Source of the DNA: Escherichia phage C119
Reading direction: 5' to 3' (one strand)
Sequence record: NC_042046.1
DNA: 47,319 nucleotides
The translations under genes were made by a program, and so were the position numbers. Below are positions 13,510-29,079 of this stretch, piece by piece. Each line of letters opens with the position of its first letter. Positions within the stretch are counted from its first letter, which is position 1. The notes beneath the pieces were generated by a model, which made no database searches, was not told the origin of the DNA, and saw only the letters and a program-made list of their open reading frames with translations.

Positions 13510-16500
13510 ATGGCACAAATGGTTAAACAAACAACGAGGTTATATGATATGGCCGATTTGCCAAAGATTTATGGAAGCAAGGGTGGTAGCAAGAAGCCGC
13601 ACACACCTGTAGAGCAAGAAGATAACCTGATTTCACTAAACAAGATTAAGGTGCTACTGGCTGTAGCTGATGGAGAGGTTGATTCTAGTTTCTCGCTCAA
13701 GGATGTTTACCTTGCTGACGTTCCGGTGCAAAACCAGGATAACTCATTCAACTATGAAGGTGTTACGGCAGAGTTTAGGTCTGGTACTCAGTCGCAGGAT
13801 TACATCGCAGGACTAGATGGCGCAGCTTCAGAGATTCAGGTTAGTCGTGAAATCAATAATGACACACCTTATATCATCGCAGTCAACAACAGTCAGCTAT
13901 CAGCAATTCGAGTCAAGCTGTTCTGGCCTCGACTCGTTAAGCAAGAAGAGAATGGAGATTTAAATGGCACAACATGTGAATATGCAATCGATTTATCAGT
14001 TAATGGCTCAGCGTACACTGAGTATATCAGAGGCGTGGCTAACGGTAAAACTACAACAGGTTACGACCGCAGTATCAGGGTTAACTTACCAGCCGAGTTT
14101 AGCAGCGCTCTTGTTCGTATTAGGAAGTTAACGCCAGACTCAACAAATAGCACCCTGGTTAACGGGATGCAGATCACAACCTATCAGGAAGTAATCGATG
14201 CTAAATTCCGCTACCCTCTTACGGCACTTGTTTACGTGGAGTTCAGTTCTGACCTGTTCCCTAACGGGATCCCAACTATAGCCATTAAGAAAAAGTGGAA
14301 ACTTATCCGCGTACCGACAAACTACAATCCAGAGACAAGGGCTTATAGCGGCACATGGAATGGAACTTTTAAAATGGCATGGTCTGACAACCCGGCCTGG
14401 GTTTTATATGATCTGGTGGTTAGTCAGCGCTACGGATTGGATCAGCGAGAGCTTGGTGTAGAGATTGATAAGTGGGGTCTGTATGAAGCAGCGCAATTCT
14501 GCGACCAGATGGTTCCTGATGGTAAGGGTGGAATGGAGCCGCGATATACTTGTAACGTTGTCATTCAGCAGAAAGTGGAAGCGTATCAGCTTATTCGTGA
14601 CATCTGTTCTATCTTCCGCGGTTTAACCTTCTATGATGGTGAGCAAATCGGGATTGTTGTAGACAGGCCGCGCCAGCCAAGCTATGTGTTCACTAATGAT
14701 AACGTTGTTGATGGATTGTTTAACAGGACATTCTCTAGCGACAAGAGCCTTTACACGACAGCCAACGTTCAGTTTGATGACGAGCAGAACAACTACCAGC
14801 AGGATGTCGAGCCAGTATTCGACTTAGAAGCAACACGCCGATTTGGTTACAACCCTGTAGACTTGACTGCAATTGGCTGCGTAAGGCGAAGCGAGGCTAA
14901 CCGTCGCGGGCGTTGGTTGCTGAAAACAAACCTTCGCAGTGAAACGGTAACGTTCACAACTGGCCTCGAAGGCATGATTCCTATGATTGGTGATGTAATT
15001 GCCGTTAATGACCAGGCTTGGTCAAGCAACTACACATTAAACCTTTCGGGTCGAATTGTTGAAGCTACAGGTTTGCAGGTGTTCGTGCCATTCGCTATTG
15101 ATGCTGACCCTGGCGACAGGATTTTAATCAACAAGCCAGATGGGAGCCCAGAGTACAGGACTATCGCTTCAGTATCTGCCGATAAGTTGACGCTTGAACT
15201 GAATACAGCATTCAGCTTCACACCTCAGCCGGATACGGTATTTGCAATCGACAAGCAGAATCTGGCGTTGCAGCAATACGTTGTGACAGGAATTCAAAAA
15301 GCAAACACGGACGGCGAGGATTCATTCCAGTACAGCATCACTGCGGTGCAGTATGACCCGAACAAGTATGACGAGATTGACTATGGTGTGAATATTGACG
15401 ACAGGCCAACAAGTATCGTTGACCCTGACAGGATTTTACCACCTGAAAATATCACCGTTACTAGTTACAGCAAGGTAGTTCAGGGCTTAAGCGTTGAGAC
15501 GATGGTTATTGGTTACGACAAGGTGCAGTATGCGAAAACATACAACGTACAGTGGCGCAAGAATAACGGCAACTGGATTAACGTACCTGAGACAGCTAAT
15601 ACCGAGGTTGATATTGAAGGCATTTACGCTGGCATCTACGACGTCAGGGTTCGCGCCGTAACTGACCAGAAATCAGTGTCGGCATGGTCAGATATCACGA
15701 CAGTTAGCCTGACTGGCAAGATTGGGGAACCTTCGGAGCCGCCTGTAATTACGGCTTCTGATGATGAGGTTTTCGGGATTAGGGTTAAGTGGGGCTTCCC
15801 TACTGACTCAGCTGATACCGCTTACACCGAGCTTCAGCAGGTTCCTGATAATGGTGACGGAACATATACACCGGAGAACGCGTCACTGCTTACGCTGGTT
15901 CCGTATCCTCAATACGAATATTGGCACACCACTCTACCAGCAGGTAACGTGAGGTGGTACAGGGCCAGGATTATTGACAGGATAGGTAACGTATCTCCGT
16001 GGACTGATTTTGTCAGAGGTATGGCATCCGATGATGTAAGTGCGATCATTGGTGACATCAAGGTTGATATCGAAAACTCTGATGGTTACAAGTATCTTCT
16101 CCAGAACGCCATTGATGCAAATACTGACATCCAGAATCAGGCCGAAGCTATAATCGAGAACGCCCTGGCAAATGATACTGACGTACGCGTTATGACAAAG
16201 GAGAATCTTAACAGGAAGGCGGAATATCGCCAGGCAGTAAGTTTGATTGCTGATGAAACTCAGGCCCGTGTGGACGCTCTCACGCAGCTTAAAGCGCAGA
16301 TTGATGATGAGATTGTTGGTCAGATTACGACAATTGAAACCGCACTTGCTACGGAGACCGAAGCCAGGGCTACAGCTGATACTCAATTAAGCTCAAGGCT
16401 TGGTGATAACGAGGCGGCTTTGAATCAGAAGCTTGACTCTTATGCCACGGTCGAAGGTGTTGGTGTTCAGTACGGCGTTAAGCTCGGCCTGAAGTACAAT

Positions 16501-16935
16501 GGGGTTGAGTACGGCGCTGGAATGAGCATGGAGTTAACTGGTAGTGGTGGAAATGTTCGTAGTCAGTTTATTTTTGATGCTAACAGGTTCGCAATCAGTA
16601 ACGGCATTAGTTCTGGTTCCGGTCAGTGGTCGCTACCTTTCGTTGTGGAGAATAACCAGGTGTTCATTCAGAGCGCGGTGATTCAGGATGGTTCAATTAC
16701 TAACGCGAAGATTGGTAACAGGATTCAATCAAACAACTATGTTGCTGGTAGTGCTGGTTGGGCAATTGATAAATCTGGTTTTGCTGAGTTAAGTAACGCT
16801 ACCGTTCGCGGTAGTTTGTACGCTAACAATGGTAACTTCGCGTTTAACGGAACCAACAATACTGTCGTAATAAACAATAACGGCATAACTGTTAATTTAC
16901 CAAATGGAGGTAGGGTAGTGGTTGGAGTATGGTAA
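13510..16935 (+). CDS. Host specificity / central tail fibre protein (lambda gpJ-like)
   Basis: 1141 aa, last gene of the tail-tip run, followed by a bidirectional terminator. Confidence 0.85.
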   Translation: MAQMVKQTTRLYDMADLPKIYGSKGGSKKPHTPVEQEDNLISLNKIKVLLAVADGEVDSSFSLKDVYLADVPVQNQDNSFNYEGVTAEFRSGTQSQDYIAGLDGAASEIQVSREINNDTPYIIAVNNSQLSAIRVKLFWPRLVKQEENGDLNGTTCEYAIDLSVNGSAYTEYIRGVANGKTTTGYDRSIRVNLPAEFSSALVRIRKLTPDSTNSTLVNGMQITTYQEVIDAKFRYPLTALVYVEFSSDLFPNGIPTIAIKKKWKLIRVPTNYNPETRAYSGTWNGTFKMAWSDNPAWVLYDLVVSQRYGLDQRELGVEIDKWGLYEAAQFCDQMVPDGKGGMEPRYTCNVVIQQKVEAYQLIRDICSIFRGLTFYDGEQIGIVVDRPRQPSYVFTNDNVVDGLFNRTFSSDKSLYTTANVQFDDEQNNYQQDVEPVFDLEATRRFGYNPVDLTAIGCVRRSEANRRGRWLLKTNLRSETVTFTTGLEGMIPMIGDVIAVNDQAWSSNYTLNLSGRIVEATGLQVFVPFAIDADPGDRILINKPDGSPEYRTIASVSADKLTLELNTAFSFTPQPDTVFAIDKQNLALQQYVVTGIQKANTDGEDSFQYSITAVQYDPNKYDEIDYGVNIDDRPTSIVDPDRILPPENITVTSYSKVVQGLSVETMVIGYDKVQYAKTYNVQWRKNNGNWINVPETANTEVDIEGIYAGIYDVRVRAVTDQKSVSAWSDITTVSLTGKIGEPSEPPVITASDDEVFGIRVKWGFPTDSADTAYTELQQVPDNGDGTYTPENASLLTLVPYPQYEYWHTTLPAGNVRWYRARIIDRIGNVSPWTDFVRGMASDDVSAIIGDIKVDIENSDGYKYLLQNAIDANTDIQNQAEAIIENALANDTDVRVMTKENLNRKAEYRQAVSLIADETQARVDALTQLKAQIDDEIVGQITTIETALATETEARATADTQLSSRLGDNEAALNQKLDSYATVEGVGVQYGVKLGLKYNGVEYGAGMSMELTGSGGNVRSQFIFDANRFAISNGISSGSGQWSLPFVVENNQVFIQSAVIQDGSITNAKIGNRIQSNNYVAGSAGWAIDKSGFAELSNATVRGSLYANNGNFAFNGTNNTVVINNNGITVNLPNGGRVVVGVW

Positions 16936-16965: not shown

Positions 16966-17937
16966 TTAGTAGAAGTTGGGAATAAATGGAAGTGCCATTG
17001 ATATGTTTGTATCAAATGGGAATTGCGCGCCAGTTTGAGTTGAATAGTTACCTATAACAGTGCCTGGGACGGCTCTAACTGAACCTCCAGACATGCAAAC
17101 ACCCTTGTATCGTAAGTTATTATATCCACCAGTGACTCTAGTTGTCGCTCCGCATCTAAGTATTGGGAAGAACCCACCATTCACCGACTGGTAACCATTA
17201 TTAATCTGCATAAATCCACTTAGAACAAATGGCCTCCTGACGCTAGAGAAAACTATCTTCCCAGCGCTGTTTGATATCGTTAAACCCGGACCAGCTACTG
17301 GAGGTGTATTATTGAAAATAACTAACTGAACGTAAGTACTTGCAGCAACATCATCAATCCCATTGTACGTTATATCCCTACACCATATCGTACTACCATC
17401 ACTTTCAAGTGATACGTTTTGGTTATCCCATTTACCAAAAGGAATGCCGCCAACTGGCAATGATGCAGAGCCATTAACCTGGATGCCACCAACCCAAGCA
17501 GCAGTCATTAATCTGGAATTACTTGATATCGCTGTAAAGTCAGTCGAGTTCTCAACAAGGACACCGGGGCTTGATTGTGATGATGCTGGTAAAATCTCAA
17601 AGCACTGACCGCCAAACTGCAATATGCGACCATTAGCGCCGTTAAAGTTACTTAATGTAATCCTTCCAACCCCATCATTAACCTTCGAGAACCCATTCAT
17701 GTAATAAACTTCTGGTATAACATCATATGCATCAACATAAACAGCCTGAGTTGGCAGGCAGAATGCTGTTGAGCCAGGAGTCATAGTCAGACCGAAATCC
17801 CATGATGATGCTGGTGAGCTTAACCCGCTAGTGTTTATTGAACCAGTCACGGCTGGAACTCTCAAGCCAGCTGTAATTTCCATTGCTGGCCTTCCGTCAT
17901 TCAAATCTATCAAGATACCTTGAGGCATTATTTCCAC
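16966..17937 (-). CDS. Putative receptor-binding protein / tail fibre (323 aa)
   Basis: Minus-strand ORF convergent with the gpJ-like gene, Gly/Ser/Asn/Thr-rich beta-type composition, immediately downstream of a lipoprotein gene (Llp-pb5-like arrangement). Confidence 0.5.
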
Positions 17938-18173
17938 TCCTTTGAGCCGTGATCTGCAACTGAGCCGCCGTAGCCTCCACCAACCTTTGACTCAATGCCA
18001 GCATAACGAATATCAACCTCTCCAGCTGCAACAATAACACCACCTTTCCACTTAGCTACGCAAACATCACCCGCCTGAGTCGCACACCATCCGTCAGGGC
18101 GCGGACCAGAAGAACAACCTACCGTCATGATTGCTGCTGCTGCGATGATTGCTGATTTGATGAAGTTAGTCAT
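17928..18173 (-). CDS. Small lipoprotein, candidate superinfection-exclusion factor (Llp/Cor-like)
   Basis: Minus-strand ATG at 18173 with AAGGAA RBS; N-terminus [23 protein letters not shown] has a signal peptide plus lipobox; mature part about 60 aa with two further Cys; overlaps the start of the receptor-binding gene. Confidence 0.6.
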
Positions 18174-18356
18174 TTTGTATTCCTTAGTCAGTATGTTTCG
18201 TTTCGATGGAGTAACTATAGCAAAGGCTTCTGCTGTAGTCTTTAGCAAATCGTGCTATTTTATATACGCGTAACCGATGTAACTCGATGTATACAATCTC
18301 ATCCGCTGAAAATTGTATACGCTTTTTACGCGAAGATACGCATTAGTTACATTTAT

Positions 18357-19524: not shown

Positions 19525-19719
19525 ATGGCATACTTCATTATTCAAGAGCGAAACAATCCTATTTTCGGCACATGTTACTACTGTGTAGATGGCTCAGGTT
19601 ACACAAGCAATAAATCAGAGGCGGCAAGATTTGATACAAAGCAGGAAGCTATTGAATACGCCCACGTGACAGATGAGGAGCTTGGTTCAGTAATGAAGAT
19701 TATTAAGGTGAAGGAATAA
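19525..19719 (+). CDS. Hypothetical protein (64 aa)
   Basis: ATG 19525 preceded by conserved leader acaaacaaagagagatatagaa, nearly identical to the leader at 20725-20747. Confidence 0.55.
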   Translation: MAYFIIQERNNPIFGTCYYCVDGSGYTSNKSEAARFDTKQEAIEYAHVTDEELGSVMKIIKVKE

Positions 19720-19722
19720 ATT

Positions 19723-20691
19723 ATGAGCTTCAAGGTTTACACTAGCGACGAGTTAACCAACGAAGCCTACCACAAGGAGTCAGACCATGTGTCTGGCTCT
19801 GGTCTGGCTCACATCTTCTCAACTTGCCCCGCTGCTTATAAGTTTGCAGAGCATGATGATAGCAATAAGGCTTTAAAGTTCGGTACATTAGCCCACACGG
19901 TTATTCTTGAAAACTCTGTATTCGATGCGACTTACTATCGCCAGCCAGCGCAAGAAGAGTTTGATGATCTGATTACTAGCAAGACTGCTTTGGCAACTCG
20001 GTTGAAGTCGATGGGTATTGCTGGAACATCTGGTAAGGATTATCCAGAATTAATGGAGATTCTGGCGCTGAGCGGTGAATCACTTAACGTATGGTGGGAT
20101 ATTCAGCGCTCTAACGAGGTTAAAGCGAACGGTCGCGAGATTGTATCAGCTAAAGACTTTGACACAGTACATGCGATGCGAGAGGTGCTGTGTGGCATTC
20201 CTGCATACAATGCGATAGTGAACAGTAAAACCGCTCAGCGAGAGTTATCAATCTTCGGTGAGATTAACGAGTGCGGCGTTAAGGTTCGTCTTGACCATGT
20301 CGATGTCGTTGATGATGTAGTTTATATCCGTGACTACAAGACGACTAGCGACGCATCTCCATCTGGATTTGGGAGATTGGCCTTCAAGCATGGTTACTTG
20401 CTAAAAATGGCGCTTCAGCATGATTTGTTTGTTCGCGCCTTTAATGAGAAGCGTCGAGTTGTTGTTCAGCTTCTTTGCCAGGAAAAGAAAAGCCCATTCC
20501 TTCCAATGTGCTACACGATAACAAAAGAGCACTTAAAGGTTGGTAGATTGCAATACATGAGCGCCCTATCCACATACAAGCAATGCAAGAAACTTGATAT
20601 TTGGCCTGGTTACGGATTTGGCGAAACAGAGATGGAACTGCAAGTTCCTGAGTATGAGATGAAGAAGTACGAAGATAGCACGAATAGCTAA
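19723..20691 (+). CDS. PD-(D/E)XK family recombination exonuclease (YqaJ/RecE/Cas4-like)
   Basis: Motif VRLDHVDVVDDVVYIRDYKTT (D...D/E-x-K core) and gene order exonuclease then annealing protein; stop codon lies inside the cassette motif. Confidence 0.6.
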   Translation: MSFKVYTSDELTNEAYHKESDHVSGSGLAHIFSTCPAAYKFAEHDDSNKALKFGTLAHTVILENSVFDATYYRQPAQEEFDDLITSKTALATRLKSMGIAGTSGKDYPELMEILALSGESLNVWWDIQRSNEVKANGREIVSAKDFDTVHAMREVLCGIPAYNAIVNSKTAQRELSIFGEINECGVKVRLDHVDVVDDVVYIRDYKTTSDASPSGFGRLAFKHGYLLKMALQHDLFVRAFNEKRRVVVQLLCQEKKSPFLPMCYTITKEHLKVGRLQYMSALSTYKQCKKLDIWPGYGFGETEMELQVPEYEMKKYEDSTNS

Positions 20692-20747
20692 AACGGTATT
20701 AAATTGATGGGGTATAGTTACCTCATCGACAACAAAGAGAGATAGAA

Positions 20748-21395
20748 ATGAAGACTTCAGAGAGTAACAAAACAGTTTTACAGGCACTATTTAAAGCTCG
20801 CACAGGATTTGCGAAGGCGGCAAGAGACAAGCAGAACAGTCACCTAAAGAATAGATACGCAACACTTGATTCCATGCTGGAGGCTGTAATCCCAGCACTT
20901 GATGATAACGACTTAATGATTATGCAGAGCATGTTAGAAACATCAACTACTGACAATCTTAACGTAGAGACGACTCTCTATCACGTTTCTGGCGAGTGGG
21001 TTAGCTTCTTCATGATTATGCCAATAGTTAAGAAAGACCCGCAAGGAGTAGGATCTGCATTTACATACGCTCGGCGTTACTCACTAGCGGCGGCTTTGGG
21101 AATTAGTCAGTCTGACGATGATGCGCAGATGGCAGTTAAGAGCGTCAAGGACTGGAAGCGCGATATTGAGAAGGCAGAAACTCGAGAAGAGCTTATCGAA
21201 ATCTACAAATCATGCAAATCACAAGCTGACACGGCAACGTGGGGTATAGTAGAGAAAGCGATAATAGATAAACAAGCAGAGATCAAAATGGCTTCCGCAA
21301 GTGGCTTCAACCCAGCTAAGCCAAAGGAAGTCGCTAAAAAAGTTGCAAACGCAACGAATGAAGTAGTAGAATCACAATCAATCGAGCAGTTCTAA
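20748..21395 (+). CDS. ERF-like single-strand annealing protein
   Basis: Segment NRYATLDSMLEAVIPAL...FTYARRYSLAAALGI is typical of ERF-family annealing proteins; located between exonuclease and SSB. Confidence 0.55.
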   Translation: MKTSESNKTVLQALFKARTGFAKAARDKQNSHLKNRYATLDSMLEAVIPALDDNDLMIMQSMLETSTTDNLNVETTLYHVSGEWVSFFMIMPIVKKDPQGVGSAFTYARRYSLAAALGISQSDDDAQMAVKSVKDWKRDIEKAETREELIEIYKSCKSQADTATWGIVEKAIIDKQAEIKMASASGFNPAKPKEVAKKVANATNEVVESQSIEQF

Positions 21396-21436
21396 ACTAA
21401 ACGGGGCTTCGGCCCCAAAATCAAACGAGATATGAA

Positions 21437-21931
21437 ATGAATTGGGACAAATACTTTGATATCGTGGATGGTAAGCTGGTGTGGAAGTATAGAGAAGAGA
21501 TGCGGCCACAGTGGAACGCAAGATATCAAGGAAAAGAGGCAGGAGCGATAAGGAATGGATACCTTCAGACCGAAATCAATGGGAAGTGTTATTTTTGCCA
21601 TAGAATTATGTGGGAAATGATTAACGGTCGTATACCGGATGGAATGTGCATAGACCACTTGAATCACAAGAGAGATGATAACAGGATTGAAAATCTTAGA
21701 GTTGTATCTCATCAAGATAATTGCAAGAATCAGAGCTTGCGATTGAAAAATAAATCAGGAGTATCGGGAGTTTACTGGAATAAGAAAGCAAATAAGTGGC
21801 TAGCTCAAATAAGTATAAAAGGAAAAAGAAAGCATGTTGGTTTCTTTTTATCAATATCTGACGCTGAGAATGCGATAAAACAAGCAAGAAAAGAAAATCT
21901 TTACCACGAAAATCATTGCTCTAATATTTGA
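21437..21931 (+). CDS. HNH homing endonuclease with AP2-like domain (copy 2)
   Basis: NGRIPDGMCIDHLNHKRDDNRIENLRVVSHQDNCKNQ (HNH) and SGVSGVYWNKKANKWLAQI (AP2-like); N-terminus MNWDKYFDIVDGKLVW parallels copy 3. Confidence 0.8.
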   Translation: MNWDKYFDIVDGKLVWKYREEMRPQWNARYQGKEAGAIRNGYLQTEINGKCYFCHRIMWEMINGRIPDGMCIDHLNHKRDDNRIENLRVVSHQDNCKNQSLRLKNKSGVSGVYWNKKANKWLAQISIKGKRKHVGFFLSISDAENAIKQARKENLYHENHCSNI

Positions 21932-21954
21932 AATAAACAAAAAGAGGTATCAAA

Positions 21955-22377
21955 ATGCACGTAATTACAGGTCAGATTCGTAAGGCTCCTTTCACTAAAG
22001 ATGGTCAGAACGCCAAGGGTAACTGGAAGATGTACGCTATCGAAATGAGCGAATCTTATAAAACACGAGATGGAGAGCGTAAGTATAGTAATTATCGAGC
22101 TACCTTCTTTGCTAGCGAGGCGCAAATTAGCTGGTATGACGAAGCATTTCAGGAAGGAAAAGTTATCTCTGTGAGCGGCGATTCATTAGCGGTTAATGAG
22201 CGCGAACATAATGGCAAGACATATATTACGCTTGAGTTGCAGAATCCTCGATTGATGTTTAGTCAGCGAGGAGGTGAATCAGAACAGCAGCAGCAGCGAC
22301 AACAAGCTCAACAGCAACAGAGACAGCAGCCGCAGCAACAAAGCCGATTTAGTGATGAAGATGATATTCCGTTTTAA
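21955..22377 (+). CDS. ssb: Single-stranded DNA-binding protein
   Basis: OB-fold-sized N-terminal domain, Gln-rich linker and canonical acidic C-terminal tail ...FSDEDDIPF. Confidence 0.85.
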   Translation: MHVITGQIRKAPFTKDGQNAKGNWKMYAIEMSESYKTRDGERKYSNYRATFFASEAQISWYDEAFQEGKVISVSGDSLAVNEREHNGKTYITLELQNPRLMFSQRGGESEQQQQRQQAQQQQRQQPQQQSRFSDEDDIPF

Positions 22378-22385
22378 TGCAAAAG

Positions 22386-22411
22386 ATAAAGCCCCTTTCG
22401 GGGCTTTTTTA
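22386..22411. terminator. Bidirectional terminator between ssb (+) and tailspike (-)
   Basis: aaagcccctttcggggcttt hairpin with A-tract upstream and T-tract downstream. Confidence 0.75.
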
Positions 22412-25126
22412 TTGTGACGTTACATCACCATTCAAACTCAAAAATACTGATTGTTTTGTCAAATCAACACCACCTTTAAGCGAATAGTATCTTGAAGCGC
22501 AATAATCAGACTCATCTGAATAGCTGCCAACGTAAACACCAAAGCCATATCCAGAGCAAGCTACATCACCAGCGCCTTGACCTGAATACATGGTTACATA
22601 GTTACCAGCTGTTGTTAGTATAGGTCTGACATCAATATCTATATACTGAGAATCAAATGACCTTCTAACTCTAAATCCAGTATTCAGGTTTAAGATGCTC
22701 CACCAAACCTTACCAGATACATCAAAACCAAGAGCAATATTGTAAGTACCACCATTGACCATTCTTGATGAGACTGGCAACACACCTGATAAAACTCTTG
22801 TTTCACCTGATGCTGATATTAACAATGAGACACTGTGTTCTCCTGATGCCATCACGTTATACTGCAAGTAAAGAGCATTACTATTAACTCCAAAACCAGT
22901 CCCTATAGCTATAAGGTTAAAGTCTTCAGCAACAGTTATGGTCGGCGATATATTGCATGTAGCGGTGAAACCTAGTGACGGGTCAAATCCAGTGCATATA
23001 ATCTTATCTTTATTTGCCTGTGAAAGCCTTAGCCAATATTGCTGCCCAACTGATGATGCCGCTGCGGCGAATACTGGTGTATTAGAGACCCCATCAAAAG
23101 CTGAAGTGTCGTTTGCTGGCTTAATTCTTGTCTTCCTTTTGTCTATCAGTCCGTTTATCTTCAGGTTTCCTGAATACTCAGCAACATAGTTAGTGTCCCC
23201 TGAGAAATTTGGGCCAAAGTAACCAGATTCAACAACCCCATCGATCACAACATCAGATCTTGAGTCAAGGAATCTGAAGTTGCCAGCGGAAGTTGGCCTT
23301 CCATCGCCATTGTTAGATACATAGTTAAGCCCAACAAAACCATAGATTCTTACAGAGCTATTTGAAAACGAAACGTTATAATCTCTGTAGTTTGAGTTTA
23401 TGCTGTTCCTGTTACTATTTAATCCATTAAATACCACATTTCTAGAGTTTACAATTCTAACACCGTCACCACCGCAATCCTGCGCCTCTATAGCTGACAT
23501 GGTGATGTTTTGGCAGTTATCAATCAGGATGCCATAAGCATCATCAAGCTCATTATAAGCCGACCAACCCGACCAAATAAACTTACCGCCAACAATCCTA
23601 CAGTTTCCGGCATTCCTAAGTATTAGACAATTTCTTCCACAGGTGTTTACCTTTATGTTATTCCATGTGAAGTCTGTTGTTTCGTTAATCAATCCGTCTT
23701 TTTTTATGTGCTGAATAAGAACATCATCAAGAACAGGAGAGTAGTTACCAGCAGCAACGAAAATTCCGTAAACATCAAACCCAGCAATGTGAGTGTTTCT
23801 TATCGTTAAGTCCCTCCTAGGGTCAGCACCAGTGTTGAATGGGTAATTGGTTGATAACCCAGTCGGCGTAGGGATGTAAATCCCAGCAGTACCATCAGTA
23901 AACGCCGTGTCTTGCTGGGCTCCAGTGCCGTAAAGAGCAATACCTTCAATATGAATGAGCGAGCAAGAATCAGAAACCTCAATTAAAGAGCCAATTGATG
24001 AACTAAGCTGAGTTATTCTTGACTTGTGCTTGCCAAAACCAATTATAGAGCAAGATTTATTTCTCATTACCAGGTTTGATGCCATGTAGTCGCTATCAAG
24101 CTTTAATGCCAGCCCGGAGTCTAGGATTTGCTGTATCTGTGTCGTTGAGTCTGATGTCGATGACTTAATGGCCCCAAGTTCGCAAGGCGACAGCTCCCCG
24201 CTACAGATTCTTTCCCAGTAATAACCTGTACTTGATTCAAAAACCAATCCTGAAGATAATCCATATGATAAAGATGACTCCGGCTTACAAACAAAGAACC
24301 CACCACCATAACCAAGACCACCAATGTAAGAATCACAATAGACAACCTCTAAGTCATAAATTCTGGCAGAGTTTGTCATTGCTGATACTGATTCAAACCT
24401 TCTTGTGTAATCCTGTTGAATCCAAAAACCAACTCCAATACCACCTGTAGACTGTGGTGATGAGTTTTGTGGTATGGATTTTGGAACGCTACCAGACCAG
24501 TAATAAACCGAAACATGATTGTCATTAAAGTAAATTGCAGGCTGAGTTCTTGAGTTTATTTCTCCACCATTTGAGAAATCAACTACAAGAGCAGATGACA
24601 CAGAAGCCGCAGCAGAGCTTGCTATTGTAGCTGAAGAGGAAGCCGAGTTAGCGCTACTTTCAGCTAACTGCCTATCAGAAGATACCTGATCTTTGTCAGA
24701 AGAAACTTGAGCAGCATCAACAGCAACTTGCTGAGATTGCATGTTGACATTATTTACGCTTTGCTGGAAAGAATCAGAATCAAATTGATTAAAAGCATCA
24801 ACTGCCGCTGCAACCTCTGTTTCACGGGACTGATAATAACGAAGTGTCTCAGCAACGTCCTGAGCAAGACCTTGGACAGTAATTCCGTCATGAGCAAGGA
24901 TTGAGTACTGAGTCCCAGCTGGCGCAGTAAAACCTTTATCATTGAATACACGAATCTCTGTATCGCTTAAAATCTCAGCGATAGTAACAATGCTTGTCGG
25001 GGTGGTGTTAAAAATCATTGTTGCGCCAACTCGGATTAGCGTTAGTGGTTGCCTCCACGTGGTGCCAACACCAGTTACAGTTCCGTCAGCTGCAAGCGAT
25101 GCAGTTCCAGCGTCATAAATTGCCAT
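22409..25126 (-). CDS. Tailspike / tail fibre with right-handed beta-helix (pectate-lyase-like) domain; candidate depolymerase
   Basis: 905 aa; N-terminal anchor-like region, Ser/Ala-rich linker, then long Asn/Gly/Ile/Val-rich repeats (...NCRIVGGKFIWSGWSAYN...GILIDNCQNITMSAIEAQDCGGDGVRIVNSRNVVFNGL...) typical of beta-helix tailspikes. Confidence 0.65.
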   Translation of the reverse strand: MAIYDAGTASLAADGTVTGVGTTWRQPLTLIRVGATMIFNTTPTSIVTIAEILSDTEIRVFNDKGFTAPAGTQYSILAHDGITVQGLAQDVAETLRYYQSRETEVAAAVDAFNQFDSDSFQQSVNNVNMQSQQVAVDAAQVSSDKDQVSSDRQLAESSANSASSSATIASSAAASVSSALVVDFSNGGEINSRTQPAIYFNDNHVSVYYWSGSVPKSIPQNSSPQSTGGIGVGFWIQQDYTRRFESVSAMTNSARIYDLEVVYCDSYIGGLGYGGGFFVCKPESSLSYGLSSGLVFESSTGYYWERICSGELSPCELGAIKSSTSDSTTQIQQILDSGLALKLDSDYMASNLVMRNKSCSIIGFGKHKSRITQLSSSIGSLIEVSDSCSLIHIEGIALYGTGAQQDTAFTDGTAGIYIPTPTGLSTNYPFNTGADPRRDLTIRNTHIAGFDVYGIFVAAGNYSPVLDDVLIQHIKKDGLINETTDFTWNNIKVNTCGRNCLILRNAGNCRIVGGKFIWSGWSAYNELDDAYGILIDNCQNITMSAIEAQDCGGDGVRIVNSRNVVFNGLNSNRNSINSNYRDYNVSFSNSSVRIYGFVGLNYVSNNGDGRPTSAGNFRFLDSRSDVVIDGVVESGYFGPNFSGDTNYVAEYSGNLKINGLIDKRKTRIKPANDTSAFDGVSNTPVFAAAASSVGQQYWLRLSQANKDKIICTGFDPSLGFTATCNISPTITVAEDFNLIAIGTGFGVNSNALYLQYNVMASGEHSVSLLISASGETRVLSGVLPVSSRMVNGGTYNIALGFDVSGKVWWSILNLNTGFRVRRSFDSQYIDIDVRPILTTAGNYVTMYSGQGAGDVACSGYGFGVYVGSYSDESDYCASRYYSLKGGVDLTKQSVFLSLNGDVTSQ

Positions 25127-25178
25127 GTTATTTCTCCTATTTGATAGATGAAACCTATTGTATCAGATTAAATGCAAT

Positions 25179-25198
25179 AAAAAACCCTCCGAAGAGGG
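25179..25198 (-). terminator. Rho-independent terminator downstream of primase gene (minus strand)
   Basis: ccctccgaagaggg hairpin; T-tract on the minus strand (plus strand aaaaaa at 25179-25184). Confidence 0.55.
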
Positions 25199-25204
25199 TG
25201 ATTG

Positions 25205-26128
25205 CTATGAATGCTTATCTATCAGATCTTGCGGGTTATATAACCTTCTTTCAAGCCCCATCTTGAAATTGCCACCTTTAGGTATTACGACTTTTAGACC
25301 TCTATCATCAGCAACATAAAGCGACTCCTTTTCATCAGCTAAGCAAGCTATCCTGCACTCTTTATTCCTGAGTTCATAAGCAACCATTTCTAAGTTGTGG
25401 TGAGTTAGGCAGTCGTAAGTTGTCCTTTTTGTGCATGCCGATACATGTAGTGCGTTAATCCAGCCAACAGTGAGGTAGATAGCGCCATCACTACATTTAC
25501 TTACCGGAACAACCGAGCCGCGAGTGTAGTCTTTTGCGAGATATGACTCATTACCCTCTTCATCTATAAACTTTACGTTACAAGGCTCATCTGATAAACC
25601 ATCCTCGTAAACCATAAAGCATTGCTCGGCTATAATTTCTTCTCCAGACCCCTTTATTCCTATTTTGTATTCCCGTTCAGTAATAATTGCTTCAAATCTC
25701 GTAAGCTGTGTCATTTCTACAGACTTGGTGCGAGAGATTACCTTCTCGATTGATTCAATGGATGCCTGAGCGCCAAAGTTATATCTCTGAACTCGGCTCG
25801 CTGCTTTGTTTGCCTTCACTATGATTTCGACGGGAGTCAAATTAAGCCAGTCGCCAAGTAAATTTATAGCTTCCACAAATCTAAGGCCGGAACATTTCAT
25901 AACCCAGCCTATTCCTGAGTCACTGCCGCACTTAGAGCAAACTGCGGCCCCATTACCTTTTTCGCTTCCTATTTCGTCTGTAAACCTGAATCTGTCAGTA
26001 CCAAAGCAATAAGGGCACGGCCCGTGCTTCTTGCTAAGGTGTCTATCATTCCAACCAAGCTCCTTTGCATAAAATGATTTCCACAATCCAGCCATTTTAG
26101 GTATTACTTCATTCTTGTCGTAATTCAT
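25205..26128 (-). CDS. DNA primase-like protein (Zn-ribbon plus Toprim-like)
   Basis: C4 zinc ribbon HGPCPYCFGTDRFRF...AAVCSKCGSD near the N-terminus followed by an acidic-residue-containing domain; location in the replication module. Confidence 0.5.
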   Translation of the reverse strand: MNYDKNEVIPKMAGLWKSFYAKELGWNDRHLSKKHGPCPYCFGTDRFRFTDEIGSEKGNGAAVCSKCGSDSGIGWVMKCSGLRFVEAINLLGDWLNLTPVEIIVKANKAASRVQRYNFGAQASIESIEKVISRTKSVEMTQLTRFEAIITEREYKIGIKGSGEEIIAEQCFMVYEDGLSDEPCNVKFIDEEGNESYLAKDYTRGSVVPVSKCSDGAIYLTVGWINALHVSACTKRTTYDCLTHHNLEMVAYELRNKECRIACLADEKESLYVADDRGLKVVIPKGGNFKMGLERRLYNPQDLIDKHS

Positions 26129-26140
26129 TTTTATTTAATC

Positions 26141-26173
26141 CAATAAAAAGGTTGTACCGATTATGGCACAACC
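26141..26173 (-). terminator. Rho-independent terminator downstream of the HTH regulator gene (minus strand)
   Basis: ggttgt...acaacc hairpin followed by a T-tract on the minus strand. Confidence 0.6.
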
Positions 26174-26180
26174 TTAATTT

Positions 26181-26654
26181 TTACTCTTTAGCTTTTCGTG
26201 CTTCTTCTCTTTCTTTCTTAACCTTTCGCCATGATTTACGCTGCGGCTTGGTTGCTAACTCAGCTTCTGTAACAACTCGAAGCATCTGACGCTTCTTGCA
26301 TCGCAGTGTTAGAGGCTTGCCGTTACCGTCGAACTGTAAATCAGGTCGGCAGAATGTAGCCCTGAACCCCTCGCCAGTTCGCTTATATCGATTATGCGCA
26401 AGCTGTGCGCCGCGAGCTGAAATCATTCCCCGCTTACACCATTCTTCTACAGCCTGGCGCGTAACCTTTAGCTGCTTAGCTAGATTGGCCTTGCTGCCGT
26501 AGAAGTCCAATACAATCTCAAGGCGCGCCCTTAATCCCGCTCTCACTTCATCCTTTAGTACATAGTAACCTGATGGACGCTTACGCGGCTTCTTGTCTTC
26601 TGTGCGAATTGTTCCGTTGTTACCATTAAGAGTACGCTTGTCAATTGAATCCAT
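26181..26654 (-). CDS. Helix-turn-helix DNA-binding protein (putative transcriptional regulator)
   Basis: HTH-like segment LAKQLKVTRQAVEEWCKRGMIS; very basic C-terminus; divergently oriented to the helicase operon. Confidence 0.55.
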   Translation of the reverse strand: MDSIDKRTLNGNNGTIRTEDKKPRKRPSGYYVLKDEVRAGLRARLEIVLDFYGSKANLAKQLKVTRQAVEEWCKRGMISARGAQLAHNRYKRTGEGFRATFCRPDLQFDGNGKPLTLRCKKRQMLRVVTEAELATKPQRKSWRKVKKEREEARKAKE

Positions 26655-26665
26655 TTTCTCACCTC

Positions 26666-26746
26666 AATAGCACTTTTTGTTAAACATTGGTTTATATGGC
26701 TGTTATTATATCGTCAATCGAACGAACATTAAAGGCATTTGATATT
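26666..26746 (+). promoter_or_regulatory. Conserved cassette copy upstream of helicase operon
   Basis: aatagcactttttgttaaa followed by tttatatgg (-10-like) and leader tcaatcgaacgaaca resembling the cassette leader. Confidence 0.5.
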
Positions 26747-28690
26747 ATGGAAAACCGATTGAAAACAATACAAAAACAGATTGAAGAATTGGGCGAAGAT
26801 AAGATTAAAGAGATTCAAACTAAATTCACCTCTTCTAACTGTATGGTTCCGTATAGCTATCAGTGTGTTATGTACAATGAGATTGCAAAGCGCATTAGTC
26901 GCTATGAGCATCCATTTATCGCAATGGCTTCAGTTTCTGCTGGTAAGACTCTGGTTTTTGGTATGGTTGCTAAGCGTTGCTCTGAGCTTGGCTTGCCTAT
27001 GCTTGTTCTTGCTCGTCAGGCAGAGCTGGTTAGCCAGAATGCTTCTGAGATTTCTGATTACGGGGTTCCTAACTCCATTTATTGCTCTGGGCTTGGAATA
27101 AAATCATCTTATTTCCCTGTGGTGGTTGGCTCTGAGGGCACAGTAGTTGGCGGGCTTAAGAAGTCACTTGGCGATTTCTGTCCTGCGGTAGTTGCTATTG
27201 ATGAGTGTCACCATATTGATGACCAGGACATAGCGGAGGCAATTGATAACAATGAGACTGCGCAACAGGCATCAGATAAGGGGCGTAGCCAGTATACGGT
27301 CATCATCCTGACTTTAATGGAGCGCTGCCGTGCTAAGTATGGCAAGAATCTTCGTATCTTTGGACTGACTGGTTCTCCTTTCCGTGGAACTACGCCAATA
27401 GTTGTTGAAAACAAAAAGGAGTTGGGATTTTGGCGTGAGACGGTCACAAATATCGATACAAACTACCTGGTAGAGTTCGGTTCCGTGGTTCCGACAAACT
27501 TTGGTGCTACTGATGGCGTTGGTTACGACCTGTCAGAGTTTGATGCATCATCTGAAGATGGTGTTCAGGATTACACTAAAGCCCAGCTTGAAGCCATGGA
27601 TAAAAAGATTCAGGCATCTGGAACAATGACAGCGGAGATAATGAAGAAAGTATGGCTTGCCGCGAAAGACAGGAATGGAGTTCTGGTAACATGCGCAGGT
27701 GAGCGCCATTGCCACGAAGCCGCAAGTTACCTTCCTGAAGGTGAAAAGTTCTGCATTATAACTGGAAAGACTGGCGAGAAGCAGCGCAAGGAGTTGCTTG
27801 ATAAGTGCTTTAGCGGGGAGATTAAATATTGCTTTCAGGTTCAGGCGCTAACCACTGGCGTAAATGTGCCTACATGGGATACAAGCGTTATTCTGCGTAA
27901 GATCGGTAGCCTTACGCTCCTGGTTCAGCTACTTGGTCGAGGAATGCGTAAGCTTAAGAAGCTCCATGAAGATAAAGGAATGGTAAAGAATGACCATTTG
28001 GTACTGGACTTCGCAGGAACGATGGACTCTATGGCATCATTGTACTTCAATCCAATTCTTGAGCAGGCTCAATATCAGCTACGAAAGAGTAATGGCAAGG
28101 AGACTAAGCAGTGTCCAGTATGCGGAACAGAGAACAGCTTCTTTGCTCGACGTTGCATGCATATTGATGAGAATAATAATCGCTGCGAATATTTCTGGGT
28201 TAGTCGCACATGTGAAGACCAGAAAGACCCACGAACCGGAAAGGTTATCGTTAAAGGCTGTGGAGTTCAGAATGACGTTGCAGCTAAGATTTGTAGGGGT
28301 TGCGATTGCACTTTGCTTGATCCAAATCTCAACTTAAGCGGCAAACATTACCGCAAGAACGACTGGTTTGATGTTGTTGACTTTAAGGTTGGGCTAACAA
28401 AGAACCAATCAGGAATCATCTACAACTACATCCTTGATGATGGCATGGGTGGGACATTCAAAGCTCATGAGGTTTTCTTTGTAGAGTCTGGCCATCGAGT
28501 ATGTAAAACGCTCTGGTTGAACAATGGAATTAAAGGTCACGTAGTCGACATGAACGCTAAGCGATATATGGCTGCATATCGCAATGCTCGCAAGATTATG
28601 GAGTATGCGCAGTACATCCATGCCCCTAAGAGGGTAACTCACCGCAAGACCGCTAAAGGTGGCGATAATATTGCTAATAAGGAGTTCTAA
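26747..28690 (+). CDS. Superfamily 2 (DEAD/DEAH-type) helicase with C-terminal Cys-rich zinc-ribbon region
   Basis: Walker A SAGKTLVFG, DEAH-like VAIDECHHID, C-terminal CPVCGT...RRCMH...CRGCDC; ATG 26747 (ORF track begins at 26687). Confidence 0.75.
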   Translation: MENRLKTIQKQIEELGEDKIKEIQTKFTSSNCMVPYSYQCVMYNEIAKRISRYEHPFIAMASVSAGKTLVFGMVAKRCSELGLPMLVLARQAELVSQNASEISDYGVPNSIYCSGLGIKSSYFPVVVGSEGTVVGGLKKSLGDFCPAVVAIDECHHIDDQDIAEAIDNNETAQQASDKGRSQYTVIILTLMERCRAKYGKNLRIFGLTGSPFRGTTPIVVENKKELGFWRETVTNIDTNYLVEFGSVVPTNFGATDGVGYDLSEFDASSEDGVQDYTKAQLEAMDKKIQASGTMTAEIMKKVWLAAKDRNGVLVTCAGERHCHEAASYLPEGEKFCIITGKTGEKQRKELLDKCFSGEIKYCFQVQALTTGVNVPTWDTSVILRKIGSLTLLVQLLGRGMRKLKKLHEDKGMVKNDHLVLDFAGTMDSMASLYFNPILEQAQYQLRKSNGKETKQCPVCGTENSFFARRCMHIDENNNRCEYFWVSRTCEDQKDPRTGKVIVKGCGVQNDVAAKICRGCDCTLLDPNLNLSGKHYRKNDWFDVVDFKVGLTKNQSGIIYNYILDDGMGGTFKAHEVFFVESGHRVCKTLWLNNGIKGHVVDMNAKRYMAAYRNARKIMEYAQYIHAPKRVTHRKTAKGGDNIANKEF

Positions 28691-29079
28691 TGGTTAAGGT
28701 TTTTCACGACAAAACAAGCACGGACAAGGCTAAAGAGGTTGTTCACCAAATAAATTCAATAGCTTGGGTTCGCCACAACCATCCAGAGATATTTGCTTTT
28801 CACGTGAAGAATGAAGGTCTCAAGTCTATCGGCACAGCAATGAAGGACAAGCAGGAGGGAGTAATTAAGGGTGTATCAGATATTCTACTGATTGGACCAA
28901 ATGGCTTTGCCGCAATAGAGCTTAAGCGAGCAATAAAATCAGATAGCAAGGTTTCAAAGGAGCAAAAGGAGTTCCTGGAAAAGGTATCAGAAACAGGAGG
29001 TTACGCAGCAATCTGTTATGGGTTTGAAATGTTTAAGTTGGCAATTACAGATTATCTATCAAATAGCACGAATTGCTAA
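28690..29079 (+). CDS. VRR-NUC domain nuclease
   Basis: Motif DILLIGPNGFAAIELKRA...KEQKEFLEKV is the PD-(D/E)XK variant typical of VRR-NUC; TAATG overlap with helicase; stop lies inside the cassette motif. Confidence 0.65.
   Translation: MVKVFHDKTSTDKAKEVVHQINSIAWVRHNHPEIFAFHVKNEGLKSIGTAMKDKQEGVIKGVSDILLIGPNGFAAIELKRAIKSDSKVSKEQKEFLEKVSETGGYAAICYGFEMFKLAITDYLSNSTNC

What the first reader, a model, noticed from the sequence alone, without database searches (positions are those of the whole stretch)
22386..25198. Beta-helix tailspike encoded in the early region on the opposite strand
The 905-aa protein with pectate-lyase-like beta-helix repeats is not in the tail cluster but sits between ssb and primase, on the minus strand, insulated by a bidirectional terminator at 22386-22411 and the primase terminator at 25179-25198. 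The phage therefore carries three putative adhesins in three places (gpJ-like fibre, the 323-aa receptor-binding protein, this tailspike). The isolated placement suggests a horizontally exchangeable host-range module, and the beta-helix suggests polysaccharide depolymerase activity.
Basis: partly seen in the sequence, partly recalled or inferred. Interest (0 to 1): 0.45.

Follow-up and report, generated by a model that had tools for sequence, protein, structure and literature searches.

The report
O157-specific tailspike of a T1-like phage
The 905-residue gene between ssb and primase is the side tail-spike of coliphage phiC119, an enzyme that most likely cuts the O157 sugar coat of E. coli. 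Both the gene and its odd genome position are standard, already described features of T1-like phages.

Summary
A 905-aa ORF lies at 22409-25126 on the minus strand, between ssb and primase, with a terminator hairpin at each end.

The window is the whole genome of Escherichia phage C119 (phiC119), a Rogunavirus in the T1-like family Drexlerviridae.

The protein is a chimera:
- Residues 1-118 form the N-terminal anchor shared by the side tail fibres and depolymerases of 838 phage records, mostly Drexlerviridae.
- Residues 240-902 are 45% identical to tailspike TSP2 of phage CBA120, the solved O157-specific glycosidase. All five active-site residues are conserved (D485, E547, D550, R573, Y602).

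The position is not special to this phage. T1 (annotated 2004), TR2, PeterMerian and Opt-79 have the same layout, and Maffei et al. 2021 described this locus as the variable lateral-tail-fibre cassette.

DNA similarity to other genera stops at the ssb terminator and resumes about 300-400 nt inside the gene's 5' end.

A near-identical phage, BECP10, needs the O157 O-antigen to infect.

Interest is low.

What I add: the explicit TSP2 catalytic match, and a family-wide terminator plus extended -10 promoter-like element in front of the gene.

The parts
22409..25126 (-). Tailspike / lateral tail fibre gene, 905 aa, about 97 kDa
   Evidence: ORF. PHROG 4818 'tail fiber protein', full length, 1484 bits. 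100% identical to 'tail fiber protein [Escherichia phage C119]'. Mass.
24773..25126 (-). Residues 1-118: conserved Drexlerviridae N-terminal anchor domain, presumed to attach the spike to the virion
   Evidence: tblastn finds residues 1-118 in 838 phage records, mostly Klebsiella and Escherichia T1-like phages. Residues 1-175 match Klebsiella depolymerases DpK2 (7LZJ) and Depo32 (7VYV/7VZ3) at E 1e-35. DpK2 was immunogold-located on the tail tip appendages of phage RAD2 (PMC8552709).
24602..24778 (-). Residues 117-175: Ala/Ser/Gln-rich long helix, probably the trimeric helical bundle or neck
   Evidence: Single helix 117-175 in the AlphaFold model. Sequence shown. DpK2 has an N-terminal triple-helix bundle. 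tblastn matches to residues 1-175 stop at about residue 118, probably because BLAST's low-complexity filter masks this stretch.
24416..24583 (-). Residues 182-237: Tail_spike_N (D1-type head domain)
   Evidence: Pfam PF18668, E 2.7e-13, above the cut-off. Many homologues lose similarity at about residue 186 or about residue 236, so this domain is flanked by recombination junctions.
22421..24409 (-). Residues 240-902: TSP2-like receptor-binding and glycosidase module (D3', beta-helix D3, C-terminal D4)
   Evidence: phmmer versus PDB: 5W6P/5W6S and 6W4Q, E 5e-174. BLASTP 45% identity over 652 aa to CBA120 ORF211. Foldseek top hits 6W4Q/5W6P, E 6e-50.
23477..23674 (-). Active-site codons: D485 (23672-23674), E547 (23486-23488), D550 (23477-23479). 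R573 (23408-23410) and Y602 (23321-23323) lie just outside this span.
   Evidence: They align with TSP2 D506, E568, D571, R594 and Y623, the residues shown by mutagenesis to form the catalytic machinery (PMC7506556).
22388..22413 (.). Terminator hairpin shared by the convergent ssb and tailspike genes; also the 3' boundary of the variable cassette
   Evidence: The hairpin AAAG(A/G)CCCC-TTTC-GGGG(C/T)CTTT plus T-run is conserved across the loci compared, and sequence diverges immediately after it. blastn similarity to other genera ends at 22408-22417.
25174..25199 (-). Intrinsic terminator after primase, upstream of the tailspike gene
   Evidence: The hairpin is kept across subfamilies with compensatory stem changes (CCCTC/GAGGG, CCTCC/GGAGG, CCCGC/GCGGG, CCGCC/GGCGG), always followed by T6-9.
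25157..25165 (-). Extended -10 promoter-like element TGATACAAT. The predicted transcription start is near 25150.
   Evidence: TGnTAnnnT lies 12-16 nt after the terminator T-run in all distinct upstream sequences examined, including T1 (TGATAAAAT) and Webervirus LF20 (TGCTATTAT), while the flanks diverge. The motif alone is not enriched in the window, 10 found versus 9.9 expected. The evidence is therefore positional conservation only; function is inferred.
25134..25138 (-). Shine-Dalgarno AGGAG, 7 nt before the ATG
22414..24713 (-). Variable cassette: no nucleotide similarity to Drexlerviridae that carry other tailspike alleles
   Evidence: blastn of window 19701-28700 against 24 loci. Outside the O157 clade, similarity stops at about 22410 and resumes between 24714 and 24830.
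21955..22377 (+). ssb, the conserved right-hand homology arm
   Evidence: PHROG 44.
25205..26128 (-). DNA primase, the upstream neighbour on the same strand
   Evidence: PHROG 510, E 1e-96.

Best explanation
The gene encodes the lateral tailspike of phage phiC119.

Domain roles:
- Residues 1-118 are the anchor that T1-like phages use to fix their side fibres to the tail tip.
- Residues 117-175 form a helical bundle, presumably trimeric.
- Residues 182-237 form a small head domain.
- Residues 240-902 form a beta-helix glycosidase module of the CBA120 TSP2 type.

Mechanism (inferred): the protein assembles as a trimer. The spikes bind the O157 O-antigen and cleave it with an acid/base pair (D485 and D550, with E547 as back-up). 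In TSP2 this pair sits in the cleft between adjacent subunits. Cleavage lets the virion work down through the LPS layer until the GpJ tip and its separate receptor-binding protein reach an outer-membrane protein receptor.

Genetics: the gene is a cassette. Its conserved arms are the ssb 3' end plus terminator on one side, and the first 300-400 nt of the gene plus promoter region plus primase on the other. These arms allow homologous recombination to swap the 2.3-kb specificity part. The same enzymatic module has also been grafted onto the anchors of myoviruses (Kuttervirus TSP2) and podoviruses (phiV10, P22-like prophages).

Expression: the gene probably has its own extended -10 promoter placed just after the primase terminator.

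Shown here: domain homologies, conserved catalytic residues, synteny, mosaic break-points, and conservation of the terminator and -10 element.

Inferred: trimer formation, virion attachment, O157 cleavage, promoter activity.
For: - The window is the phiC119 genome (100% identical protein, contig 47,319 bp). It is a Rogunavirus by 99+% identity to AHP42, Rogue1 and JK06.
- TSP2 homology: E 5e-174, 45% identity, Foldseek E 6e-50.
- Catalytic residues conserved: D506/E568/D571/R594/Y623 correspond to D485/E547/D550/R573/Y602. Their role was established by mutagenesis (PMC7506556).
- All 19 records carrying this allele at >=95% are O157 phages or close kin. The remaining 88 matches (<60% identity) are Kuttervirus TSP2 and phiV10 / O157 typing phages.
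- At 45% and 39% identity the module exceeds the >=30% RBD identity used to define an RBP subtype (PMC10408124).
- BECP10, 99.4% identical over this region, loses infectivity on wzy and rfaJ mutants and has periodate-sensitive adsorption (PMC8402813).
- UDF157lw, 99.3% identical, makes haloed plaques (PMC10838988).
- The N-terminal anchor is shared with 838 phage records and with DpK2, which was immunogold-located on tail appendages.
- Synteny with T1, TR2, PeterMerian, Opt-79 and L025; published description.
- Break-points.
- Module on other anchors: P0004 carries the P22 Head_binding domain in a P22-like prophage.
- Terminator and -10 conservation.
Against: - No direct biochemical or virion-proteomic data exist for this protein in phiC119. 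Gel-band proteomics of the near-identical AHP24 group reported the 124-kDa GpJ-like fibre but not this 97-kDa protein (PMC4070988).
- Identity to TSP2 is only 45%, so specificity could differ in detail. TSP2's ion-binding residues (R284, D415, K465, N565) are not conserved.
- phiC119 is reported to lyse some Salmonella serovars, which an O157-only spike does not explain.
- The AlphaFold model is a monomer, with low confidence for residues 1-100 and 631-706.
- The -10 motif is not statistically enriched in the genome. Read-through from primase cannot be excluded.
Confidence: 0.85

Rival explanations
1. The protein is a virion spike that binds but does not cleave its glycan, acting as a pure adhesin.
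For: No enzymatic assay exists for this protein. Some beta-helix spikes are binding-only. TSP2 ion-site residues are not conserved.
Against: All five residues of the TSP2 catalytic apparatus are conserved. The most conserved stretch (70% identity, residues 401-450) lies in the beta-helix. A near-identical phage makes haloed plaques.
Confidence: 0.06
2. It is an active depolymerase, but its substrate is a surface polysaccharide other than the O157 O-antigen (core, ECA, colanic acid or another O-type).
For: Identity to TSP2 is 45%. [quoted passage not shown] The UDF157lw authors argue that halo activity is not solely tied to the O-antigen.
Against: Every phage carrying this allele or its TSP2/phiV10 relatives is an O157 phage or carries a known O157 spike. 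BECP10 needs wzy, the O-antigen polymerase.
Confidence: 0.08
3. The protein is mainly a soluble enzyme made with the early replication genes and released at lysis, not a structural part of the virion.
For: The gene sits among replication and recombination genes, co-oriented with primase. It was not listed among the gel-band proteins of AHP24-type virions.
Against: The N-terminal 118 residues are conserved across the family while everything downstream varies, the signature of a virion anchor. The homologous DpK2 is on the virion tail tip. A terminator separates the gene from primase.
Confidence: 0.05
4. On expression only: the gene has no promoter of its own and is transcribed by read-through from the regulator-primase transcript. 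The conserved TGnTAnnnT would then be something other than a -10 element.
For: The motif is not enriched genome-wide. There is no -35 element. GenBank annotators placed no promoter there.
Against: A strong hairpin plus T-run is conserved directly upstream. The -10-like element keeps its position even in Webervirus, where the upstream neighbour is ssb rather than primase. The spacing from the -10 to a CATC..A-rich leader box resembles that of the phage's other promoter-like units.
Confidence: 0.3

Closest known systems
Lateral tail fibre / tailspike locus of Drexlerviridae (T1 gp ST26 'tail fiber'; BASEL phages; Maffei et al. 2021, PMC8594841 S1C Fig)
   Same: - Same position between the exo-erf-ssb recombination genes and primase/helicase.
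- Same orientation relative to primase.
- Same conserved far N-terminus with a variable remainder.
- Same terminator shared with ssb.
   Different: The locus here is a single gene with no separate chaperone or second fibre gene; PeterMerian has two extra genes. The C-terminal module is an enzymatic beta-helix rather than a fibre.
CBA120 TSP2 (ORF211; PDB 5W6P/5W6S/6W4Q), the O157-specific tailspike glycosidase of Kuttervirus
   Same: Residues 240-902 are 45% identical. The D3'/beta-helix/D4 architecture is the same. The catalytic residues D506/E568/D571/R594/Y623 are all conserved. Both phages infect O157:H7.
   Different: - The N-terminal 168-residue region that docks TSP2 into the branched four-spike complex is absent, replaced by the T1-like anchor and helix.
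- The chloride and sulfate site residues differ.
- The virion is a siphovirus.
Tail spike protein of phage BECP10 and 'tail fiber' of AHP24/AHS24/AHP42/AKS96, Rogue1, JK06 (orf75), phiJLA23, phiKP26
   Same: The same gene at 99.3-100% nucleotide identity, with the same neighbours and terminators. BECP10's authors already proposed it as the O157 O-antigen determinant.
   Different: None of substance. In the JK06 and UDF157lw records the gene is split into two CDS.
Klebsiella Webervirus capsule depolymerases DpK2 (RAD2, 7LZJ) and Depo32 (GH-K3, 7VYV)
   Same: Homologous N-terminal ~175 residues (E 1e-35). Same overall plan: anchor, helical bundle, beta-helix, C-terminal domain. Similar size, about 905 aa.
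   Different: The beta-helix modules are unrelated in sequence (11-12% identity in Foldseek). The substrate is K2 capsule. The gene neighbourhood is rearranged, lying after ssb on the same strand and next to gpJ.
phiV10 / O157 typing phage tailspikes and a P22-like prophage tailspike (P0004)
   Same: The same receptor-binding module at 39-47% identity.
   Different: Podovirus anchors (P22 Head_binding PF09008). The gene lies in a P22-type late region next to ant/mnt/arc and an integrase.

Membership tests
Drexlerviridae lateral tail fibre locus | Gene lies between the recombination module (exo, erf, ssb) and the primase/helicase module | tested here: met
   Same order in AHP42, Opt-79, TR2, PeterMerian, T1 and L025.
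Drexlerviridae lateral tail fibre locus | Only the far N-terminus is conserved across the family; the rest is allelic | tested here: met
   Residues 1-118 occur in 838 records. Similarity of 113 of 120 homologues ends between residues ~173 and ~430, with clusters at ~186 and ~236. The DNA break lies at 24714-24830.
Drexlerviridae lateral tail fibre locus | Protein is attached to the virion tail tip | not testable with these tools
   Only by homology to DpK2 (immunogold). Gel-band proteomics of AHP24-type virions did not report it.
CBA120 TSP2-type O157 tailspike glycosidase | Homologous D3'/beta-helix/D4 module | tested here: met
   E 5e-174; 45% identity over 652 aa; Foldseek E 6e-50, probability 1.00.
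CBA120 TSP2-type O157 tailspike glycosidase | Catalytic Asp506/Asp571 with the alternative Glu568/Tyr623(/Arg594) | tested here: met
   D485, D550, E547, Y602, R573; roles from PMC7506556.
CBA120 TSP2-type O157 tailspike glycosidase | RBD identity >=30% to an experimentally verified O157 RBP (subtype criterion of PMC10408124) | tested here: met
   45-47% to CBA120 TSP2, 39% to phiV10; criterion quoted.
CBA120 TSP2-type O157 tailspike glycosidase | N-terminal region (about 168 aa) that assembles TSP2 into the branched TSP1-4 complex | tested here: not met
   No similarity before TSP2 residue 263. The N-terminus is the Drexlerviridae anchor instead. The protein therefore works like TSP2 but is not part of a Kuttervirus-type branched complex.
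CBA120 TSP2-type O157 tailspike glycosidase | Homotrimer with an inter-subunit active site; cleaves O157 O-antigen | not testable with these tools
   Only a monomer model was made. Indirect support: BECP10 depends on the O-antigen.
   Pfam gives only the generic Beta_helix, below its cut-off (21.7 vs 25.9 bits), and no Pectate_lyase family. The nearest relatives use hydrolase-type carboxylates. The resemblance is at fold level only.
Intrinsic (rho-independent) terminators | GC-rich hairpin directly followed by a T-run, conserved in relatives | tested here: met
   25199-25184 (-) and 22388-22407 (+). Compensatory stem changes appear in relatives. In the minus direction at 22407-22388 the T-run is poor (ATCTTTTGCA).

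The most novel reading that the evidence does not exclude
The side-fibre gene of T1-like phages may be an autonomous, portable transcription unit: terminator, then a -35-less extended -10 promoter, then the gene, then a shared terminator.

In most family members this promoter is overlapped at about +1 to +15 by an inverted copy of the family's unexplained 21-nt repeat (ATAGCACnnnTTGnTAAA). Elsewhere in the genome that repeat sits about 20-22 nt upstream of the -10-like hexamer. If so, one unknown factor could switch the replication-side promoters on and the fibre promoter off, or the reverse.

The O157 Rogunavirus clade (C119, AHS24, phiKP26, Sf12, Opt-79) has lost this copy, which might free tailspike expression from that control.
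Probability: 0.12. Interest if true: 0.4.

Novelty: already known. Interest (0 to 1): 0.14.

Why it matters
This is the likely determinant of O157 specificity in a group of phages used for O157:H7 biocontrol: phiC119, AHP24, BECP10, UDF157lw.

[quoted passage not shown] It states that UDF157lw encodes no tail spike and assigns its halo activity to another ORF.

The explicit match to the solved TSP2 enzyme, including the catalytic residues, gives ready-made mutants and a structural template. The defined cassette borders (22414-24713) give practical swap points for engineering host range.

None of this changes current understanding. The locus, its variability and its proposed role are already in the literature.

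Tried and rejected
- Enrichment of the extended -10 motif. TGNTANAAT occurs 10 times versus 9.9 expected. The promoter argument therefore rests only on positional conservation across relatives.

- Sigma-54 reading of the TAGCAC...TTGCTA repeat. Rejected on my own reasoning: the TTGC element is 2 nt too close to the first element, and GG is replaced by AG.

- TTGCTA of the repeat as a -35 hexamer. Rejected because the spacing to the -10-like TATAGT is about 22 nt.

- The conserved block after the repeat (GGATGnnnTATAGT...) as the start of a small conserved protein. Checked at one unit: that ATG is out of frame with the real erf start at 20748, and its Shine-Dalgarno spacing is implausible.

- Compositional evidence for foreign origin. 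GC is 0.41-0.42 over 22-25 kb, within the range seen elsewhere in the window, so it is uninformative.

- Virion proteomics in the literature. The Rogue1 and AHP24 papers analysed only a few gel bands and did not list this protein, so virion presence in this clade remains unproven.

- Papers not held. Plattner 2019 (TSP2-O157 complex) and the Rtp genome paper could not be read. Conservation of sugar-contact residues could therefore not be checked.

- The terminal receptor of the 323-aa DUF6453 protein was not resolved.
Full report
**What the window is.**
The 905-aa product of 22409-25126 (-) is 100% identical to 'tail fiber protein [Escherichia phage C119]', on a contig of exactly 47,319 bp. 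The window is therefore the whole genome of phiC119, an O157:H7 phage published in 2016 (PMC5028729).

Over 22300-25300 it is 99.3-100% identical to phiJLA23, phiKP26, AHP42, Rogue1, AHP24, AHS24, AKS96, BECP10, JK06 and UDF157lw. AHP42 and e4/1c are classified as Rogunavirus, Rogunavirinae, Drexlerviridae. [quoted passage not shown]

**Checking the observation.**
The ORF, its strand and its neighbours are as described. The neighbours are ssb at 21955-22377 (+) and primase at 25205-26128 (-).

Both hairpins exist:
- 22388-22407, 8-bp stem. It is followed on the + strand by a good T-run and on the - strand by a poorer one.
- 25199-25184 (-), followed by TTTTTATTGC, 5 nt after the primase stop.

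Both fold much better than shuffled controls. AHP42's depositors annotated the same overlapping + and - strand terminators between ssb and the gene. T1's 2004 annotation shows the identical arrangement: ST27 (+), overlapping + and - strand terminators, tail fibre ST26 (-), primase ST24 (-).

**What the protein is.**
It has four parts:
- Residues 1-118. tblastn finds them in 838 phage records, dominated by Klebsiella and Escherichia T1-like phages. Residues 1-175 match the Klebsiella depolymerases DpK2 and Depo32 at E about 1e-35. DpK2 was located by immunogold on the tail appendages of siphovirus RAD2 and has an N-terminal triple-helix bundle (PMC8552709).
- Residues 117-175. One long Ala/Ser/Gln-rich helix in the model.
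- Residues 182-237. Pfam Tail_spike_N, E 2.7e-13.
- Residues 240-902. These align with CBA120 TSP2 at E 5e-174 and 45% identity. TSP2 structures are also the top Foldseek hits, E 6e-50. The model has pLDDT 85-96 across the beta-helix.

TSP2 is the spike that gives CBA120 its O157:H7 specificity. Its catalytic machinery is Asp506/Asp571, with Glu568/Tyr623 (and Arg594) as an alternative apparatus (PMC7506556). All five are conserved here as D485, D550, E547, Y602 and R573. TSP2's ion-binding residues are not conserved.

The 'pectate-lyase-like' label holds only for the fold. No pectate-lyase family matches, and the generic Beta_helix hit is below its cut-off.

**Specificity.**
The C-terminal module occurs in 107 phage records:
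- 19 at >=95% identity. The ten phages listed at this level are the Rogunavirus-group phages above; several have O157:H7 as stated host.
- 88 at <60% identity. Those listed are Kuttervirus TSP2 alleles (CBA120, PhaxI, ECML-4, EP75, FEC14 and others), phiV10 and O157 typing phages 9 and 10.

A 2023 survey groups receptor-binding domains of >=30% identity into one subtype and lists an O157 subtype. It names eight genera, none of them Drexlerviridae (PMC10408124). By that criterion this spike belongs to the O157 subtype.

Experimentally, BECP10 (99.4% identical here) shows periodate-sensitive adsorption and cannot plaque on wzy or rfaJ mutants. Its authors attributed O157 specificity to this 'TSP' (PMC8402813). 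UDF157lw makes haloed plaques (PMC10838988).

**The position is canonical.**
The same order holds in Opt-79 (Rogunavirinae), TR2 (Braunvirinae), PeterMerian (Tempevirinae), T1 (Tunavirinae) and an uncultured relative carrying a 61%-identical allele. That order is helicase, then regulator-primase-fibre, then convergent ssb-erf-exo.

In Klebsiella Webervirus the gene follows ssb on the same strand.

Maffei et al. 2021 described exactly this. Their S1C Fig legend states that the flanking recombination and primase/helicase genes are conserved and syntenic. [quoted passage not shown] They also proposed that Drexlerviridae use these fibres on O-antigen as primary receptor. In their scheme a separate RBP locus downstream of gpJ sets the terminal receptor.

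- GpJ homologue at 13510-16935 (PHROG 31).
- The DUF6453 protein at 16966-17937 with an adjacent phage-lipoprotein gene.
- This spike.

**Evidence for module exchange.**
- Protein junctions. Of 120 homologues, 113 share only the N-terminal part, with junctions clustering at residues ~175-186 and ~236. The remainders carry a wide range of Pfam domains, including PF12708, PF13884, PF03009, PF13472/PF00657 and PF13088.
- DNA break-points. At DNA level, similarity between C119 and other genera ends at 22408-22417, just past the ssb terminator. It resumes at 24714-24830. The terminator itself is nearly invariant across the loci compared.
- Recent transfer. Phage e4/1c shares ssb plus the whole spike at 95.3% identity. 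Its flanks are 80-84% identical and its primase is unalignable by blastn. This points to a recent transfer within the genus.
- Other anchors. The enzymatic module also sits on foreign anchors: the Kuttervirus TSP2 N-terminus, and the P22 head-binding domain in a P22-like E. coli prophage.

**Expression (inferred).**
The three leftward genes (regulator, primase, spike) are each followed by a terminator-like hairpin.

The post-primase hairpin is kept across subfamilies with compensatory stem changes and a T6-9 run. An extended -10-like element follows 12-16 nt later in every distinct upstream sequence examined:
- TGATACAAT in C119, at 25165-25157.
- TGCTACAAT, TGGTATACT, TGATAGAAT, TGCTATTCT and TGGTAGACT in other lineages.
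- TGATAAAAT in T1.
- TGCTATTAT in Webervirus LF20, where the upstream gene is ssb.

The motif is not enriched in the genome, so only its conserved position argues for function. I read the gene as its own transcription unit, with about 0.7 confidence on this sub-claim.

**Noticed on the way.**
Most Drexlerviridae carry the inverted repeat TAGCA-N5-TGCTA between that -10 and the Shine-Dalgarno of the fibre gene. The C119 clade does not.

In C119 the motif occurs 9 times exactly and 16 times with one mismatch allowed, against 2.1 expected. It is the core of the 21-nt repeat aaATAGCACnnnTTGnTAAAA reported for TLS, T1, Rtp and Rogue1. The TLS authors list its function as an open question (PMC11447400).

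In C119, about 17 oriented units each precede a gene. Typically a TATAGT-like hexamer follows 20-22 nt after the repeat, and a CATCGAAAC-like box follows 5-6 nt after that.

**Verdict.**
The feature is an ordinary, already annotated and already discussed part of T1-like phage biology.

My additions are modest:
- The explicit TSP2 catalytic match.
- The precise cassette borders.
- The conserved terminator and -10 arrangement.

Noticed in passing
window 11080, 18258(-), 18616, 20675, 26667, 29063, 29748, 30434, 31722, 32279, 36354(-), 36552(-), 37506(-), 38341(-), 40001, 41117 (also 3730): About 17 oriented copies of the 21-nt repeat ATAGCACnnnTTGnTAAA, each upstream of a gene. Its core, TAGCA-N5-TGCTA, occurs 16 times with <=1 mismatch versus 2.1 expected (0/100 shuffles). 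Typically a TATAGT-like -10 hexamer follows 20-22 nt later, then a CATCGAAAC-like box, then the Shine-Dalgarno and ATG. The repeat is known from TLS, T1, Rtp and Rogue1, with unknown function (PMC11447400). The fixed spacing to a -10-like hexamer would centre it near -42. That position is my inference, not taken from the paper.
   Followed up: partly
L010-L015, L017-L019, L021, L022 at ~3962-3976; L005 4468-4482; L007 (T1) 14904-14918; absent at window 25127-25156: In most Drexlerviridae an inverted copy of that repeat (TAGCAATTCGTGCTA on the coding strand) lies between the extended -10 and the Shine-Dalgarno of the lateral-tail-fibre gene, where an operator would sit. C119, AHS24, phiKP26, Sf12 and Opt-79 lack it and have a shorter leader.
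   Followed up: partly
window 21431-21930 (ORF 21437-21931 +): An HNH endonuclease gene (PHROG 99, E 3e-57) is inserted between erf and ssb. The 99%-identical AHP42 lacks exactly this ~500-bp stretch, with identity jumping from 21430 to 21931. This looks like a homing-endonuclease insertion. Opt-79, TR2 and e4/1c carry HNH genes at other spots in the same region.
   Followed up: partly
L024 / L010 (phage e4/1c) versus window 21976-25143 and 25144-26105: e4/1c shares ssb plus the whole tailspike at 95.3% identity, while the flanks are 80-84% identical and the primase gene gives no blastn match. The near-identity ends at the tailspike start codon and promoter, consistent with a recent recombinational transfer of the module within Rogunavirus.
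   Followed up: partly
JK06 (NC_007291) and UDF157lw (OQ243221) records, region homologous to window 22409-25126: In both records the gene is split into two 'tail fiber protein' CDS, and tblastn needs 2 pieces. The UDF157lw paper states that the phage encodes no tail spike and assigns its depolymerase/halo activity to a 'major tail protein' ORF_26. Given the 99.3% identical TSP2-like gene, that attribution may need re-examination (frameshift or sequencing error versus real inactivation).
   Followed up: partly
window 16966-17937 (-) and 17928-18248 (-): The 323-aa protein downstream of gpJ is DUF6453 (E 6e-138), and the overlapping 106-aa ORF is a phage lipoprotein (PF24052). This pair fits the 'RBP plus superinfection-exclusion lipoprotein' locus of small siphoviruses. 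Homologues occur in 362 phage records, including Dhillonvirus. Which outer-membrane receptor it targets was not resolved. A 21-nt repeat unit at 18258 (-) sits in front of this pair.
   Followed up: partly
window 26148-26175 (-): An 11-bp-stem terminator-like hairpin lies between the regulator gene (26181-26654) and primase. Each gene of the leftward regulator-primase-tailspike block therefore has its own terminator, matching the 'transcripton' picture proposed for T1.
   Followed up: no
literature on AHP24/AHS24/AHP42/AKS96 virions (PMC4070988, Table 6): Gel-band proteomics lists the tape-measure protein (theoretical 108.9 kDa) in a band observed at 94.8 kDa. The 97-kDa tailspike would migrate there too and was not reported. 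Its presence in virions of this clade is still undocumented.
   Followed up: no
phiC119 host range (PMC5028729): phiC119 is reported to lyse some Salmonella Oranienburg, Agona, Luciana and Minnesota strains in spot tests. An O157-specific spike does not obviously explain this. It may be lysis from without, or rough strains reached through the GpJ/RBP route.
   Followed up: no
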